Origin: a virus
Direction: 5' to 3' (one strand)
IMG/VR virus record: IMGVR_UViG_3300033112_000310
Span: 44,441-108,440 of that record
Length of the DNA stretch: 64,000 bases
Part shown: positions 10,145 to 62,983 of the stretch, one piece after another
Layout of the letters: the number at the start of each line of letters is the position of its first letter
Numbering within the stretch: position 1 is the first letter of the stretch
The notes under the pieces: generated by a model
The model's input: only the letters and a program-made list of their open reading frames with translations
Database searches by the model: none
What the model was told of the DNA's origin: nothing
Translations under genes and position numbers: made by a program

Positions 10145-10629
10145 GGCAGAAGGTTCGTGTAGTCGCGGTTTCGCGTCAGCGCCTTGCTGGACAACCACGG
10201 GAACATGAAACCGACCCCGGCGCCCACGTAAACGGCTTCAAACACGCCGAACGTTCCACTGCCGAGCCAGAATGCACACGCCATGCCGACCATGAGAGCA
10301 CCGCCCACCGCCATGCCGCCCGAGCCGCCACGAACGCGGAACGCGAGCATTCTCAAGAGTCGCCATCGGCGCTCCCGTGGGGTTTCAGTCGGCAGAAGAT
10401 GTTTGCGGTTGACGTAGAGCTTGCCGTTGGGGCCGCATATCGCGCCTTCCGACCGCATGGTGACGATGGCCTTGTACGTCGGCTCGTGCCACGTTGGCCG
10501 CCCGGTGAAGTGTTCCATGTGTCCTTGCGACAACACGCCATGCTCGTGCACGCAATCGGTCGCGCCTTTCAGCCATGCCGGCCCGCGCCAAAGGCAGTTT
10601 TTGCACGATGGATGTTCTCTGTCAGTCAT
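10141..10629 (-). CDS. Cys-motif protein with C-terminal transmembrane helices
   Basis: SCKNC...C...MRSEGAICGPNGKLY followed by two hydrophobic helices. Confidence 0.6.
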   Translation of the reverse strand: MTDREHPSCKNCLWRGPAWLKGATDCVHEHGVLSQGHMEHFTGRPTWHEPTYKAIVTMRSEGAICGPNGKLYVNRKHLLPTETPRERRWRLLRMLAFRVRGGSGGMAVGGALMVGMACAFWLGSGTFGVFEAVYVGAGVGFMFPWLSSKALTRNRDYTNLLP

Positions 10630-12503
10630 GCCGTTTCCTTCGCTTCGCAATAGGCCGCGAGCCATTCGGGCCGGTATCCCATGAGCCAGCCGCTGAACAG
10701 CGGGTTGAGCATCAGCCGTTCGCCGTCGTGGCCGTAGGCGCTGCCCGGCACTTGGCGCGGCAACTGGTCTAGCCGGGTGCGCGGAGTGCCGTCAGGGTTG
10801 ACACCTTCGGTGGCCATGCCGGGCGTGTCCTTGTAGTCGCGTGCGGCGGCGGTCGCCCACGGGTCAACCCCGTCGCGCCACAGAGATCCCAACGCCTGGT
10901 CTTCGATGCGCGCCCGCGCGTCGTGTCCGCGTTCAAGGCTCGCGCCCGAATGCGGCCCGTTGGTCGCCTTCGGCGTGCCCCAATTGGCGAGCACGGCAAT
11001 CTGCGTCAGCGGCTTGCCCTTGTCGTGCGGCCTTGAATCCCTGCCGCCGCGTCGGCCATCCATCGCAACCGGCGTCGGCCACACCGCCAGCTTGGTGACG
11101 ACTTCCAGTCCGACTTGCGCCTTGCGGCCCTTGTCCGTGTACCACGTCCCATTCTCAAGGTAGGCGTTCTGAATCGCTCGCCCGCCGTTCGGGACATTCG
11201 GGGTTGGCCAGATTGCAAGAACCGATACCGCGAGCGCCAAGTTCTGGTAGCCGTTCGCACCGCCGCGCCGCTCGAACTCCGCTTCGGCGCCTTCGATGGT
11301 CGGGCGGCTGTTCTGCGCATCGGCGAACGTCGCGGTAGGCCAGTTGGCCAACTGTGCAACGGTGCCTAGCTTGGGATTGCCTCGCGCGAACACGGACTCG
11401 TCGTCGGTGCGTTCGCCCATTACGGTTGGCCAGTGAGCGACGTCGACCGACTCGCCAAGCGCGAGCCGGGAACGTTCGTGCTGTTGTTCAGGGTCGAGAG
11501 TGCCCCGCTTTCCATCGACGGTGGCGGGCGTTCGCCATCCACCCATAACGCTAGGCCAAACGCCTCGTCTCGGTGTCGCGCTCAGCCGGGGAAACCCCGT
11601 CTCGGCAAACAACTCGTCCGGCGCTCCGGTGTCGTCGTCATCGTCTTCCATGCCGAACAGATCGCCCATGTCCGGCACCGCGCGCTGCGCCCGTCCCGAT
11701 GCCGGCACCCGCCACTTCAACCGGCATTCCGGCGAAGCGTCAACGTCGATCAGTTCCAGCAGAAGCCTCGTCAGCGCCCCTTGCATGTTCGACTCGCCGC
11801 TGACTTCGGCCAGCAGGCGAAGGAATATCTCGGCCACGTGCGGGACGATGGCGTTGCCGAACCCGCGCAGCATGGCCGCGCGACCCGCGACCTTCGGAGC
11901 CACCGGCGGGACGCCGGCGCGTCTTGCCTTCCCGTCCCGGCACGCGAGCACGAGGCTTTCGTCCCACGGGCGCGGCTGTCGGTTGGTCGGTGATTTGACT
12001 TCGATGCGATGGCCGGGCTGCACCGCCGCCCACCAGTTCCGCTGTCGGATGTGAGGGGCGGCGACGGTAGCGGCCGGCAGGTCGGCGGCGCAGAAACGGT
12101 ACCCGAGCTGTTCGACATCGGCACGAACGCCGGCGAGCCACTGCAAACCCTTGCGGCTGGTGACTTGCTCGCCGACGACGACGGGCGGCCGCGTGCGTTC
12201 GATGATCGCGAGCATGTCGGGCCAAAGGTGGCGCTCGTCCTTTTCGGCCTTGCCCTGGCCGGCGATGGAGAAGGGCTGGCACGGACACGATCCCGTCATC
12301 ACCGGCCCGTCCCACCCGGCCATTTCGAGAGCCAAGGGCCAGCCGGCGATCCCGGCGAACAGATGCAGTTGATCCGCCTTCGGAATCTTGGCGGTCGCGA
12401 TGTCGCCTTCGACAATCTCGCCGTCCGGGATCAGGCCGAAGGCCATGAGGCCGCGCATCCACGTTGCCGAGTGCGGGTCGTTGTCGTTGTACGCGGCTAA
12501 CAT
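10626..12503 (-). CDS. C5 DNA cytosine methyltransferase with repeated WPTP-type target-recognition segments
   Basis: Motif I LFAGIAG, IV GSCPCQPFS, VI GEQV, VIII HIRQR, X LRGFGNAIVP, IX-like LNPLFSGWLMGY; start MLAAYND at 12503. Confidence 0.9.
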   Translation of the reverse strand: MLAAYNDNDPHSATWMRGLMAFGLIPDGEIVEGDIATAKIPKADQLHLFAGIAGWPLALEMAGWDGPVMTGSCPCQPFSIAGQGKAEKDERHLWPDMLAIIERTRPPVVVGEQVTSRKGLQWLAGVRADVEQLGYRFCAADLPAATVAAPHIRQRNWWAAVQPGHRIEVKSPTNRQPRPWDESLVLACRDGKARRAGVPPVAPKVAGRAAMLRGFGNAIVPHVAEIFLRLLAEVSGESNMQGALTRLLLELIDVDASPECRLKWRVPASGRAQRAVPDMGDLFGMEDDDDDTGAPDELFAETGFPRLSATPRRGVWPSVMGGWRTPATVDGKRGTLDPEQQHERSRLALGESVDVAHWPTVMGERTDDESVFARGNPKLGTVAQLANWPTATFADAQNSRPTIEGAEAEFERRGGANGYQNLALAVSVLAIWPTPNVPNGGRAIQNAYLENGTWYTDKGRKAQVGLEVVTKLAVWPTPVAMDGRRGGRDSRPHDKGKPLTQIAVLANWGTPKATNGPHSGASLERGHDARARIEDQALGSLWRDGVDPWATAAARDYKDTPGMATEGVNPDGTPRTRLDQLPRQVPGSAYGHDGERLMLNPLFSGWLMGYRPEWLAAYCEAKETA

Positions 12504-17691: not shown

Positions 17692-17913
17692 ATGAGCTAC
17701 CGCAAGGCCAACATGAGAGCCAGCGCCGCCGCCCGGTCTGCTAGGTCGAAGCGGTCGGCCACCGCGAGACAGTGCCCGAGCTGTGGCCGCAAAGGCGCGC
17801 TGAGACGCGACGTCGCTGAGAACGCGCCCCCGCCAGTCGTGTTCTACGAATGCCGGTGGTGCGGGTGGGCCGGCAGCGGCGACGAACTGCGGGCCATGAG
17901 AAAGGGCGCATGA
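17692..17913 (+). CDS. small zinc-finger protein
   Basis: CPSCG...CRWCG; GGAG SD. Confidence 0.6.
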   Translation: MSYRKANMRASAAARSARSKRSATARQCPSCGRKGALRRDVAENAPPPVVFYECRWCGWAGSGDELRAMRKGA

Positions 17914-17922
17914 CGCGCCCTT
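17902..17922. terminator. hairpin at the point where the two transcription directions converge
   Basis: AAGGGCGC-ATGAC-GCGCCCTT. Confidence 0.55.
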
Positions 17923-17929
17923 CGCTCGT

Positions 17930-18019
17930 TGGAGGAAGCGGTGGGATTTGAACCCACGGGGCAGTCACGCCCTTCGGTTTTCAAGACCGCTGCCTTAAAC
18001 CAGACTCAGCCACGCTTCC
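17930..18019 (-). tRNA. tRNA-Ser (anticodon UGA)
   Basis: Full cloverleaf: GGAAGCG/CGCTTCC acceptor, CT-TGA-AA loop, long variable arm, TTCAAAT T loop, encoded CCA. Confidence 0.95.
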
Positions 18020-18023
18020 ACGG

Positions 18024-18216
18024 TGGCGGAAGGGAAAGGATTCGAACCTTCGTGCGCGGCGACCCGATTACCTATTCTGTTTCCGTTCAAACCCTAGGCT
18101 CTGAAAGGAAACAGAAAGGAATCGACGCGAGGAAACCGGCATGACCGACACCGACCCGAGGGCAACCGCCCTCCCGGTTAGCAACCGGGTGCTTTAGACC
18201 GCTCAGCCACCCTTCC
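18024..18216 (-). tRNA. tRNA-Ser (anticodon GCU) with a 121-nt structured variable region
   Basis: GGAAGGG/CCCTTCC acceptor, G73, CCA, D arm, CCCGG-TTGCTAA-CCGGG, GAAGG-TTCGAAT-CCTTT; positions 18052-18172 lie between the anticodon and T arms. Confidence 0.85.
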
Positions 18217-18226
18217 GGGCAAGAGA

Positions 18227-18246
18227 AAGGGCGCGTGTGCGCCCTT
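18227..18246 (-). terminator. hairpin upstream of the tRNA pair
   Basis: AAGGGCGC-GTGT-GCGCCCTT followed on the minus strand by a pyrimidine run. Confidence 0.55.
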
Positions 18247-18269
18247 CCCCGAACTCCGACGTTGGCCGG

Positions 18270-19139
18270 TTAGAACCGACGCTCGACGCCGAAGCCGTAG
18301 TTGTAGCTTCCGGTCGGCGGGTTCCCCGGCGCCTTGCCGTCGTGCCAGTCGACGCCATCCGGCACGTTGTCCAGCCCGTGGGTCGTGCCGACGTGGGCGG
18401 TCACGCCCCACCCGGCCGCCAGTTCGTGCGACCAGGCCACGCGCAGCGACCAGTACACGCCGGTCGACGGGAAGCGTTGCCCTTCGGCCTCGGCCGAGAA
18501 GCCGTGGTCGAAGTCCCGCTCCCACGCGATGCGCGGCGCTTCCTTGAGCACGTTCCAACCGATGGTCGCGCCGGCAAGCGGACCCTCGGCGAACGCGTAG
18601 CCCAGGGCGGCGGTTTCGGCAATGGACGTGCCGTAGCGCACGACCCGGCCTTCGGCTTCGGTCACTTCCTGCACGGACACGGCCCGGCGGTCGTATCCGA
18701 GCGTGACGGCGAATCCGTCGAGCACCGCGTGAAGCTGCACGTCGGCGCTGTCGGCGTTCTTGCACGCGAGATTCCCGCCCGTCCACGCTCTGCCGTGGCC
18801 GTCGACCGCCACGTCCTGGTATTCGCCTTCGGCCTCGTATGCCAAGGTGACCGCCGGGATGTCGCAGCCGTCGGAGTCGTCGCCCGTGACGGAAACGGAA
18901 AGGAACTGCTCGAACGGGAAGACTTCGACTTCGCGTTCGGGGCCGGGCACTTCGCGTTCGATTTCGACCACTTCGGCGACGGGCAGATCGGCGACCGCTT
19001 CGGCCACGCCGGCAGCGACCCCTTGGGCCACGCCGTCCGCGATTGCAGCGGCGAGTTCTTCCCGTTCGATGTGCGTGCCTTCGGACGCGAAGGCCATTGC
19101 GCCGGCGAGCAAGAACGCCAGCAATGCGATTGGTTTCAT
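18270..19139 (-). CDS. putative outer-membrane beta-barrel protein
   Basis: Signal peptide MKPIALLAFLLAGAMAFA, alternating-polarity strands, C-terminal YNYGFGVERRF ending in Phe. Confidence 0.65.
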   Translation of the reverse strand: MKPIALLAFLLAGAMAFASEGTHIEREELAAAIADGVAQGVAAGVAEAVADLPVAEVVEIEREVPGPEREVEVFPFEQFLSVSVTGDDSDGCDIPAVTLAYEAEGEYQDVAVDGHGRAWTGGNLACKNADSADVQLHAVLDGFAVTLGYDRRAVSVQEVTEAEGRVVRYGTSIAETAALGYAFAEGPLAGATIGWNVLKEAPRIAWERDFDHGFSAEAEGQRFPSTGVYWSLRVAWSHELAAGWGVTAHVGTTHGLDNVPDGVDWHDGKAPGNPPTGSYNYGFGVERRF

Positions 19140-61495: not shown

Positions 61496-62983
61496 TCAGG
61501 CGAAGATCGCGAACGATTCCGGGTGCCGAACAGCCACGTCGCACGAGTGGAAGATGATCACCCGGACGGCACCGGCGGTCGAACGGCTGTAGGGGTCAAC
61601 CAGAATGTCCAGCATCCCCCATTCCCCGACAATGACGTCCGACCAGTTCCCGAAGAACAGTTCGTTCAACGTGATTTGGTTCGATTCGGCCAACGGATAG
61701 GGCAGCTTGTCCGCCAGGAACACGCCCGACCCCGGGTCGACACGCCTGCGCATCATGTTGGTCGTGATCGTGGCCCCGCCCGTGAACCCGAGGTTGCCCA
61801 TCAAGGCGTTGTCCGTCGCGATCTCCTTGCGGAGTTCGAGAACCCCCAACCACGTCGGGTCGCCCTCGTCGCCCTTCTTCGTGTCGATCTCGTTGATCGC
61901 CGTGTCTTCGTGCGTGACCGAACCGACGCCGGTTACGTTCTTGACGCCCAACGGTTGCCCGTTCACGCCCGTACCGCGGAACGCGGCCCGGTCTTCGGCG
62001 AGCGCCACTTCCGTCATCAGGTCGCGACGGATGAAGTTCTCCACGGCCACCGACGACTGCAACCGCAGCGCGCGGGTGTAGTCGGTGTACGCGCCGACCG
62101 TCCGCGGGGTCATCGTGATCTGGCCGACAGCCTGGTCGGTGTTGCCGACGTCGGCCCCGTCCTTCGGCACCCACGAGACGACGCCCGCGCCCGTCTGCCG
62201 CGGAATCGCCACGTCGCCCACCAGACCGGTAAGCATCGTGGCACCGAGCATCGGCAACGCCTGGTTGTTGCGCAGCAGTTCGATCATCGACTGCGGCCGC
62301 CAATCGACCCCCACCAGCGCGCCGGCGCCGGAGAAGTCGTCGGCCGACAGATCCCGCTGTTCGATGCCCCAAAGGTCCATCAGGGCACGGCCCGCTTCCC
62401 GCGCCATATCGCTCTTGTTGAAGATCAGGCACTTGAGCCGGGCAATCGCGGCCGCCCGCTGGCCCGTCACCACGTCGCCGTACACGTCGGGCGGAACGTA
62501 GAAGCCGAGCGGCGCATCCTTGATCTGCGCCGAGTACGCATCGACGGCCTCAAGTTCCATGCGCGCCGCCTCGCGGTCGGCGTCGATCGCACCCTTCGAC
62601 CGGGCGATGATCAGCTTGTTGAACGAGAAGTCGCGCATTTCCCGGTCGCTCAGGCCGATGGGGTCGGTCAACCGGTTGCTGTACTGGCCGACTTGAAGCT
62701 GACGCTTGATGGCCTGGCGCTGTTCGTGGATTTCGCCGCATTCCCGCTCAAGTGTCTTCTGCTCCTCGATTTCGTCCGGGGTCAGGTTCCTTGATGCGAG
62801 AAAATCGCCGATTTCCGACAATCTCACGCGTTTCTCGTGTTCCTGCTCGCGCAGCCGGCTTTCCCGCGTCCGCAGGTTGCCGCGCTGTTCTTCCGCAGTC
62901 GTCGTCGGGCCACCGCCGCCGGGGTTGTTCCCGCCGCCGTTGTTCCCGTCGCCGTTCCCGCCGTTGTTCGGTTCATCCGGCAT
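61496..62983 (-). CDS. HK97-fold major capsid protein
   Basis: N-terminal coiled-coil delta domain; GDVAIPRQT, AFRGTG..GQPLG, FFGNWSD, DVAVRHPESFA. Confidence 0.97.
   Translation of the reverse strand: MPDEPNNGGNGDGNNGGGNNPGGGGPTTTAEEQRGNLRTRESRLREQEHEKRVRLSEIGDFLASRNLTPDEIEEQKTLERECGEIHEQRQAIKRQLQVGQYSNRLTDPIGLSDREMRDFSFNKLIIARSKGAIDADREAARMELEAVDAYSAQIKDAPLGFYVPPDVYGDVVTGQRAAAIARLKCLIFNKSDMAREAGRALMDLWGIEQRDLSADDFSGAGALVGVDWRPQSMIELLRNNQALPMLGATMLTGLVGDVAIPRQTGAGVVSWVPKDGADVGNTDQAVGQITMTPRTVGAYTDYTRALRLQSSVAVENFIRRDLMTEVALAEDRAAFRGTGVNGQPLGVKNVTGVGSVTHEDTAINEIDTKKGDEGDPTWLGVLELRKEIATDNALMGNLGFTGGATITTNMMRRRVDPGSGVFLADKLPYPLAESNQITLNELFFGNWSDVIVGEWGMLDILVDPYSRSTAGAVRVIIFHSCDVAVRHPESFAIFA

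What the first reader, a model, noticed from the sequence alone, without database searches (positions are those of the whole stretch)
18024..18216. 193-nt tRNA-Ser(GCU) with a 121-nt structured variable region
Acceptor stem, G73, CCA, D arm, anticodon arm and T arm are all intact. Between the anticodon and T arms lie a normal-looking Ser hairpin (AGGGC-GGTT-GCCCT), a small hairpin, and a long imperfect hairpin with a perfect TTCTGTTTCC/GGAAACAGAA core flanked by CGATT/AATCG, CCT/AGG and TTCAGA/TTTGAA. The insert is too short for a group I intron and is not in the anticodon loop. SerRS recognises the long variable arm rather than the anticodon, so the RNA might still be charged. It could be a tRNA-scaffolded ncRNA, a new intervening sequence excised by an RNase III-like cut, or a decoy for tRNA-targeting defences (inference). 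Standard tRNA finders may miss it.
Basis: partly seen in the sequence, partly recalled or inferred. Interest (0 to 1): 0.85.

Follow-up and report, generated by a model that had tools for sequence, protein, structure and literature searches.

The report
Phage serine tRNA with 107-base insertion
A phage from a sponge metagenome has a serine tRNA gene with a folded 107-base piece at the base of its side arm, and a matching sequence from another sample lacks exactly that piece, so it is likely a recent DNA insertion that probably weakens the tRNA rather than an evolved giant-armed RNA.

Summary
The 193-nt tRNA-Ser(GCU) is real, on the minus strand of a 112-kb tailed phage from a sponge metagenome. 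A 151-nt record from another sample and study (run X2) matches both flanks with no differences and joins window 18052 directly to 18160. The '121-nt variable region' is therefore a 14-nt Ser arm plus a precise 107-nt insertion before C48, with no target duplication. That insertion-free allele rests on one low-depth record. The insert folds (z about -3), but it fails the junction tests for group I, II, III and BHB introns, has no closing stem for RNase III-type removal, and no homolog turned up. It keeps the cloverleaf no better than shuffled inserts and sits where tRNA-Ser geometry is nearly invariant. Best reading (0.55): a recent insertion of a pre-folded DNA piece, probably a small passive hairpin element or a captured gene start, giving an unspliced and impaired tRNA. 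Rivals: tolerated giant-arm tRNA or decoy (0.22); new intron type (0.12). The scan noted giant-arm tRNA-like RNAs on other DNA before; none matched this sequence.

The parts
18160..18216 (-). 5' part of tRNA-Ser(GCU): acceptor 5' strand, D arm, anticodon arm, native variable hairpin (57 nt)
   Evidence: identical in the insertion-free record of X2
18180..18182 (-). Anticodon GCU
18160..18171 (-). Native variable hairpin, 4 bp with a 4-nt loop; same stem as in the neighbouring tRNA-Ser(UGA)
18053..18159 (-). 107-nt insertion between the variable stem and C48; no target duplication, junction cannot slide
   Evidence: joint 18052 to 18160 in run X2, 'both' = 0; slide 0/0
18131..18157 (-). Small G-U-rich hairpin of the insert
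   Evidence: MFE folds
18064..18125 (-). Long imperfect hairpin (10-bp perfect core, two single-base bulges); also folds on the other strand and as DNA
18152..18159 (.). 8-nt direct repeat, copy at the very start of the insert
   Evidence: D19; 19 of 5000 shuffles have a terminal 8-mer repeated
18060..18067 (.). 8-nt direct repeat, second copy, 7 nt from the other end of the insert
   Evidence: D19
18054..18065 (-). Insert 3' end that can pair 10 of 12 with the native variable-arm sequence, giving an alternative long arm
   Evidence: 103 of 5000 shuffled inserts do as well
18131..18197 (+). Antisense ribosome-site-like motif plus ATG of the type used at this phage's gene starts, opening only an 18-codon frame
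   Evidence: motif in 29 of 5000 shuffles, but start-site matrix score not significant (115 of 1000)
18024..18052 (-). 3' part of the tRNA: C48, T arm, acceptor 3' strand, G73, CCA (29 nt)
   Evidence: identical in X2
17930..18019 (-). Uninterrupted tRNA-Ser(UGA), 4 nt downstream; the only other tRNA gene called in the contig at default settings
18227..18246 (-). 8-bp hairpin just upstream of the tRNA pair
   Evidence: I25
17902..17922 (-). Hairpin with the same 8-bp stem just downstream of the tRNA pair
   Evidence: I24, D2
18270..19139 (-). Upstream gene, 289 aa, predicted outer-membrane beta-barrel-like protein; likely on the same transcript

Best explanation
An ordinary phage tRNA-Ser(GCU) gene carries a 107-base piece between its variable stem and C48 that a matching sequence from another sample lacks, and this piece is likely a recent DNA-level insertion that is probably not spliced out and probably impairs the tRNA. 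Shown: the two alleles, the exact ends, the lack of a target duplication, the folded insert, the missing intron signatures. Inferred: the insertion-free allele is the ancestral one; the piece was already folded when it arrived (its hairpin arms differ at 4 places while the two phage alleles differ at 0 of 302 flanking bases); it came as a small passive hairpin element moved in trans by a single-strand (HUH-type) enzyme, or as a fragment of a gene start patched into a break. The 193-nt RNA would be made with the neighbouring tRNA-Ser(UGA), fold largely into the cloverleaf with an extra domain, and be a poor substrate for SerRS; the phage would tolerate this because host tRNA can read AGY.
For: Insertion-free allele: X2 record of 151 nt, 34 + 117 nt, 0 differences, joint 18052 to 18160; a second X2 record matches 18353-18503 with 0 differences. 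It includes 60 nt upstream of the tRNA and the 4-nt spacer, so it is this phage lineage. Without the insert the variable stem abuts nucleotide 48, as in 112 of 127 parsed tRNA-Ser genes, and the cloverleaf costs 0.2 kcal/mol over the MFE against 2.8 with it. The real insert protects the cloverleaf no better than shuffles (48 of 150 as good). No intron signature at the junctions. No homolog in phages, plasmids, IMG/VR, JGI contigs, GTDB contigs, the own genome or 31 bacterial genomes. No other tRNA-Ser(GCU) with a long insert among 16, 115, 12 and 9 pattern hits. The hairpin folds on both strands (z -3.02 and -2.59) and as DNA. The phage encodes Ku, a RecT-like and an SbcC-like protein and two HNH nucleases. 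IS200/IS605-type elements insert without target duplication and depend on end hairpins (PMC7290912, passages).
Against: The insertion-free allele rests on one record at depth 3, found at likeness settings of 80 and 90, which the tool warns about. No second copy of the insert and no mobilising enzyme was found, so 'mobile element' is untested. The insert folds better on the tRNA strand (-42.2 vs -32.1 kcal/mol; 6 G-U pairs vs 0). Its 3' end can re-close the variable arm with 10 of 12 pairs (103 of 5000 shuffles), which hints at selection at the RNA level. The filled allele is the only one seen in X1. The insertion-free variable region is 14 nt, one below the 15-22 range of the 127 genes. Identical flanks leave no time for decay, so impairment is inferred, not seen.
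Confidence: 0.55

Rival explanations
1. A tolerated or selected giant-arm tRNA: the insert's 3' end re-closes the variable stem, the L shape survives, and the RNA is charged or acts as a decoy or escape form against host enzymes that recognise tRNA-Ser by its variable arm.
For: Acceptor, anticodon and T helices keep pairing probabilities of 0.99, 0.78 and 0.76; the long-arm fold (-81.7) is as stable as the native-arm fold (-80.8); 10 of 12 pairs close it. Serine identity rests mainly on the variable arm (PMC9976931, passages). The toxin MenT3 selects tRNA-Ser by its long variable loop (PMC11162799, abstract and passages). Phage tRNAs are proposed to evade host tRNases (PMC10264068, abstract). 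Both tRNA genes of this contig are Ser.
Against: The near-identical relative lacks it; no conserved family found; shuffled inserts keep the cloverleaf as often; the long-arm fold leaves one unpaired base before C48, seen in 1 of 127 genes. The MenT3 passages read do not mention phage.
Confidence: 0.22
2. A new kind of short tRNA intron, removed precisely at the RNA level by self-splicing or a host enzyme, so the phage makes a normal tRNA; the X2 allele is the intron-less form.
For: Ends are exact, with no base lost or duplicated, as expected of an intron; both exon parts are intact; folding favours the transcribed strand; the filled allele is the only one seen in X1.
Against: No U at the 5' junction or G at the 3' end; no GUGYG...AY on either strand; BHB central helix 1 of 4 pairs; no terminal stem; no Rfam family at its curated score; no ligase, splicing endonuclease or reverse transcriptase among 140 of 159 predicted proteins (Pfam) or 28 of them (PHROGs).
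Confidence: 0.12
3. An rRNA-style intervening sequence cut by RNase III without ligation, leaving a two-piece tRNA.
For: A helix of about 25 bp with bulges is present.
Against: The helix lies inside the insert (positions 35-96), so a cut there would leave at least 34 and 11 extra bases on the two halves; the insert ends do not pair.
Confidence: 0.05
4. Artefact: either the filled gene is a misassembly or the insertion-free record is a chimeric read.
For: X1 may be the source of the window, so its contig is not independent; the X2 record is single, read-sized, at depth 3.
Against: The insert has no copy elsewhere in the genome to mis-join from; the X2 joint has no microhomology and gives standard tRNA-Ser junction geometry.
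Confidence: 0.05

Closest known systems
Class II bacterial and phage tRNA-Ser(GCU), e.g. Stenotrophomonas phage vB_SmaS_Bhz55 (OR797042.1)
   Same: All arms, GCU anticodon, G73, CCA; two pieces at 90.5% identity cover the two exon parts.
   Different: Variable region 121 nt against 15-22 nt in 127 genes; gene 193 nt against 78-95 nt.
IS200/IS605-family elements and their ends-only derivatives (PATEs); PMC7290912, passages
   Same: Short, no coding frame, no terminal inverted repeats, no target duplication, DNA hairpin near one end.
   Different: Single copy, no TnpA found in the phage, only one strong DNA hairpin, guide rule inconclusive.
Archaeal non-canonical tRNA introns (BHB motif); PMC3978253 and bioRxiv 10.64898/2026.10.13.758758, passages
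   Same: Precise interruption outside the anticodon loop; variable-region insertions occur in archaea.
   Different: No BHB at these junctions; the phage looks bacterial (ribosome sites, CsrA, outer-membrane-like protein).
Group I introns of bacterial tRNA genes (features recalled; cited in the reference list of PMC3978253)
   Same: Structured insert in a tRNA gene; a short stretch resembles the P7 helix (by eye, motif recalled).
   Different: 107 nt, wrong junction bases, no Rfam match.
Long-arm tRNAs: tRNA-Sec, selC* and allo-tRNAs; PMC7609411, passages
   Same: Enlarged variable arm on a SerRS-type tRNA.
   Different: Here the acceptor/T fold is the plain 7/5, the extra domain is branched and about 100 nt, and it is present in one allele only.

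Membership tests
Class II tRNA-Ser | 7/5 cloverleaf, G1-C72, G2-C71, G73, CCA, Ser anticodon | tested here: met
Class II tRNA-Ser | Variable region of about 15-22 nt with the stem directly against nucleotide 48 | tested here: not met
   121 nt in the filled allele; 112 of 127 comparison genes have no unpaired base there. The insertion-free allele has the geometry, at 14 nt.
Class II tRNA-Ser | Charged by SerRS and used on the ribosome | not testable with these tools
   needs aminoacylation assay
Group I intron | 5' exon ends in U, intron ends in G (recalled) | tested here: not met
   exon ends in C, insert ends in A, junction cannot slide
Group I intron | Catalytic core P3-P9 / Rfam match | tested here: not met
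   no intron family among 14 matches at E <= 10
Group II / III intron | GUGYG...AY ends, or NUNNG start (recalled) | tested here: not met
   both strands tested for group II, sense strand for group III; the antisense strand reads GTGCG only if one exon base is counted in
Archaeal/eukaryal BHB intron | Two 3-nt bulges around a 4-bp helix at the junctions (PMC3978253) | tested here: not met
   central helix 1 of 4, outer helices 0 of 3 and 1 of 3
RNase III-excised intervening sequence | Insert ends pair into a long closing helix (recalled) | tested here: not met
   summed pairing probability of first 6 with last 6 bases 0.02
IS200/IS605 PATE | No target duplication, no terminal inverted repeats | tested here: met
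IS200/IS605 PATE | Hairpin at each end with a guide tetranucleotide at its 5' base | tested here: inconclusive
   one strong DNA hairpin; guide-like 4-mers occur at several places, one at the foot of the long hairpin, about as chance predicts; pairing rule recalled
IS200/IS605 PATE | Further copies and a cognate TnpA | tested here: inconclusive
   none in the phage contig, estimated 89% complete; host genome unknown
MITE or tRNA-targeting integrative element | Terminal inverted repeats with target duplication, or duplicated att core | tested here: not met
   no shared bases at the junction; likeness of insert to the 3' exon reached by 209 of 3000 shuffles
Conserved tRNA-scaffolded ncRNA | Homologs with covariation in the extra domain | tested here: inconclusive
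   no homolog found, so no covariation test; nearest relative lacks the insert

The most novel reading that the evidence does not exclude
The 107-nt piece is the first member of a new class of short mobile tRNA intron in phages: it inserts precisely before C48 without duplication, uses its 3' end to pair with the 5' exon as a guide, and is removed from the RNA by chemistry unlike group I, group II or BHB splicing.
Probability: 0.12. Interest if true: 0.88.

Novelty: new variant of a known kind. Interest (0 to 1): 0.45.

Why it matters
A natural pair of alleles, with and without a 107-nt domain at the hinge that SerRS reads, makes two questions directly testable with two short transcripts: how large a variable arm a bacterial tRNA-Ser tolerates, and whether a 107-nt insert with none of the known splice signatures can be removed. 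If it is spliced, it is a new intron class. If it is charged unspliced, its variable region is about five times the largest in my comparison set (22 nt) and a natural scaffold. If neither, it still shows how giant-armed tRNA look-alikes can start as single insertions, and that a default tRNA finder mis-calls such genes.

Tried and rejected
Expression: no RNA holder listed. X3 and X4 hold no part of the insert or its junctions; this shows nothing. Exact hairpin patterns: 6 unrelated IMG/VR hits without tRNA genes, 0 in JGI contigs, 0 in GTDB contigs; exact patterns miss diverged copies. blastn of the insert: 30 phage and 7 plasmid records, none covering 80%, all within short GC-rich stretches. 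One-sequence covariance model: only the locus itself, a weak own-genome hit (E 0.078) and 1 of 31 genomes at E 0.044. Screens for other long-insert tRNA-Ser(GCU): 16 of 16 tandem tRNAs; 112 of 115 normal tRNA ends, the other 3 a tandem pair and two isolated 3' fragments; 12 of 12 normal genes or isolated 3' fragments; gaps of 71-89 and over 142 nt were not screened; 0 IMG/VR hits for the 5' half; 9 of 9 JGI hits uninterrupted. Related phages through neighbour or terminase proteins: none in IMG/VR, one GTDB contig without tRNA; the closest protein relatives lie on ENA and Logan contigs whose DNA I could not fetch. Insert as a copy of another part of this genome: best local scores matched by 3 of 20 and 8 of 60 shuffles, nhmmer E 0.39. 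Insert as a copy of a tRNA part: not significant. Hammerhead core in the insert: absent; an HDV-like loop and a group I P7-like stretch were considered by eye and dropped because the partner helices are missing. One search had D-arm and anticodon-arm indices off by one; those values were redone. Literature: six searches for such an insert (listings and abstract starts only) showed no description of a phage tRNA with a variable-region insert; the library lacks most subscription journals, and I read no supplements, where lists of odd phage tRNAs could lie.

Full report
Observation. The window is part of a 111,982-base single contig, 65% G+C. It encodes terminase, portal, prohead protease, capsid and tape-measure proteins, so it is a tailed phage. 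The best holder of the DNA is a sponge metagenome run, X1, which may be its source. The gene lies on the minus strand, 18216 to 18024. Rfam's tRNA model covers it whole at 47.2 bits. Default ARAGORN mis-calls a 94-nt gene. Acceptor, D, anticodon and T helices all pair, with GCU, G73 and CCA, and 121 nt lie between anticodon and T stems. The 193-mer folds at z -3.48. One X1 contig spans 17000-19500 at depth 30.7 with no differences. An uninterrupted tRNA-Ser(UGA) follows 4 nt downstream; these two are the only tRNA genes called at default settings.

The key result is an insertion-free allele. Run X2, another sample and study, has a 151-nt record whose first 34 bases match 18019-18052 and whose last 117 match 18160-18276, with no differences and nothing between. 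A second X2 record matches 18353-18503 exactly. The joint skips 107 bases and shares no base between the two sides; the junction cannot slide. The record includes sequence outside the tRNA on both sides, so it belongs to this phage lineage and not to a host tRNA. Caveats: it is a single read-sized record at depth 3, and I laid it at likeness 80 and 90, below the 95 the tool advises, although the pieces themselves are exact. Removing the 107 bases gives an 86-nt tRNA whose 4-bp variable stem abuts C48. That geometry is found in 112 of 127 tRNA-Ser genes that I could parse out of 137 distinct genes from 169 fetched loci; their variable regions are 15-22 nt, so this allele's 14 nt is one short of the range. 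The neighbouring Ser(UGA) gene has the same stem. I infer that the short allele is ancestral.

Anatomy of the insert. It has a small G-U-rich hairpin, a long imperfect hairpin at positions 35-96 and short tails. It folds at z -3.02 on the tRNA strand (2 of 300 shuffles as good) and -2.59 on the other (0 of 300); 0 of 60 random genome windows reached -3. The tRNA strand has the lower energy and 6 G-U pairs against 0. Three side features were picked after looking, so their counts overstate significance: its first 8 bases recur 7 bases from the other end (19 of 5000 shuffles); its last bases can pair 10 of 12 with the native variable arm (103 of 5000); and the opposite strand has the ribosome-site-plus-ATG motif of this phage, which marks predicted gene starts in 14 of 20 genome occurrences and appears in 29 of 5000 shuffles, although a start-site matrix did not single it out (115 of 1000). 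The hairpin arms differ at two substitutions and two bulges, while the two phage alleles differ at 0 of 302 flanking bases, so the hairpin is probably older than the insertion (inference).

What it is not. The junctions lack the group I, II and III signatures and a BHB motif, and the ends do not pair into a closing stem (BHB definition from PMC3978253, passages; the other signatures recalled). No Rfam family reaches its curated score on the insert. There is no duplication of the kind left by DDE transposons or integrases. No reverse transcriptase, transposase, integrase, RNA ligase or splicing endonuclease was found among 140 of 159 predicted proteins in Pfam or 28 in PHROGs; the contig is estimated 89% complete. 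Ku, RecT-like, SbcC-like, RusA-like and two HNH proteins are present.

Relatives. The insert has no homolog by blastn in phages or plasmids, by exact hairpin pattern in IMG/VR, JGI or GTDB contigs, or by a one-sequence covariance model in the own genome and 31 bacterial genomes. Pattern screens for other tRNA-Ser(GCU) genes with long inserts gave none among 16, 115 and 12 IMG/VR loci and 9 JGI loci. Protein relatives of the upstream gene (38-55% identity) lie on ENA and Logan contigs whose DNA I could not fetch, so the most informative genomes remain unseen. Covariation could not be tested.

Would the RNA work? With the insert, pairing probabilities are 0.99 (acceptor), 0.07 (D), 0.78 (anticodon), 0.96 (variable) and 0.76 (T), against 0.99, 0.32, 1.0, 0.95 and 0.73 without it. 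The cloverleaf costs 2.8 kcal/mol over the MFE, against 0.2; 48 of 150 shuffled inserts cost as little. So the frame can fold, but the insert shows no clear tuning to keep it. Serine identity rests mainly on the variable arm and on tertiary shape (PMC9976931, passages), and arm orientation is thought to matter (PMC7609411, passages). The insert sits exactly at that hinge. The alternative long-arm fold leaves one unpaired base before C48, seen in 1 of 127 genes. I infer reduced charging. AGC is the second commonest Ser codon in the predicted genes (503 of 1726), but host tRNA can read it (established knowledge).

Mechanism. Most likely (0.55): a recent DNA insertion of a pre-folded piece, unspliced, leaving a weakened tRNA. 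A blunt, duplication-free insertion of a hairpin fits IS200/IS605-type single-strand transposition (PMC7290912, passages) or capture at a break; I could not tell these apart, and membership of the IS200/IS605 group is not shown. Rivals: a tolerated giant-arm tRNA or decoy (0.22), plausible because enzymes such as MenT3 select tRNA-Ser by its long variable loop (PMC11162799, abstract and passages) and phage tRNAs are proposed to evade host tRNases (PMC10264068, abstract); a new intron type (0.12); an RNase III cut (0.05); artefact (0.05).

Novelty. Six literature searches (listings only) showed no phage tRNA with such an insert. Variable-region insertions are reported in Asgard archaea (bioRxiv 10.64898/2026.10.13.758758, passages). 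Earlier notes of this scan describe giant-arm tRNA-like RNAs and duplication-free hairpin insertions in tRNA genes on other DNA; a sequence look-up found none like this insert. I rate it a new variant of a known kind, an insertion-interrupted tRNA gene, with interest 0.45: singular and probably incidental, but with exact ends and a natural control allele that make the intron and giant-arm readings cheap to test.

Noticed in passing
L024:1155-13925 (G000:C1, outside the window), + strand: An array of type II hammerhead ribozymes, about one before each short early gene: 22 pattern matches, 4 above Rfam's RF02276 gathering score, most with a repeated AAGCGGCA box and a common ribosome site. Hammerheads flanking prophage genes are described (PMC3088659, passages), but 22 in a row seems a lot.
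   Followed up: partly
window 18227-18246 and 17902-17922: The tRNA pair is bracketed by two hairpins with the same 8-bp stem (26-nt direct repeat, 81% alike): possibly duplicated terminators or processing sites, or a trace of how the tRNA cassette arrived.
   Followed up: no
window 17930-18019, - strand: tRNA-Ser(UGA) has U as discriminator and a G-A mismatch at the top of the anticodon stem. Both tRNA genes of the contig are serine.
   Followed up: no
window 18270-19139, - strand: 289-aa secreted, outer-membrane beta-barrel-like protein with no Pfam or PHROG family; 6 relatives on ENA/Logan contigs and one in a gammaproteobacterial bin.
   Followed up: partly
window 61499-62983 and L027:1523-2467: Two separate genes match the HK97-type capsid family PF05065 (495 aa and 315 aa).
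   Followed up: no
L024:8848-15026; L025:117-2180; L026:5889-6089; window 10629-12503: ArdC-like anti-restriction protein, Ku, at least four DNA methyltransferases (one with a weak intein match) and a CsrA homolog.
   Followed up: no
L039 and L143: IMG/VR tRNA-Ser genes called with an ACU anticodon.
   Followed up: no
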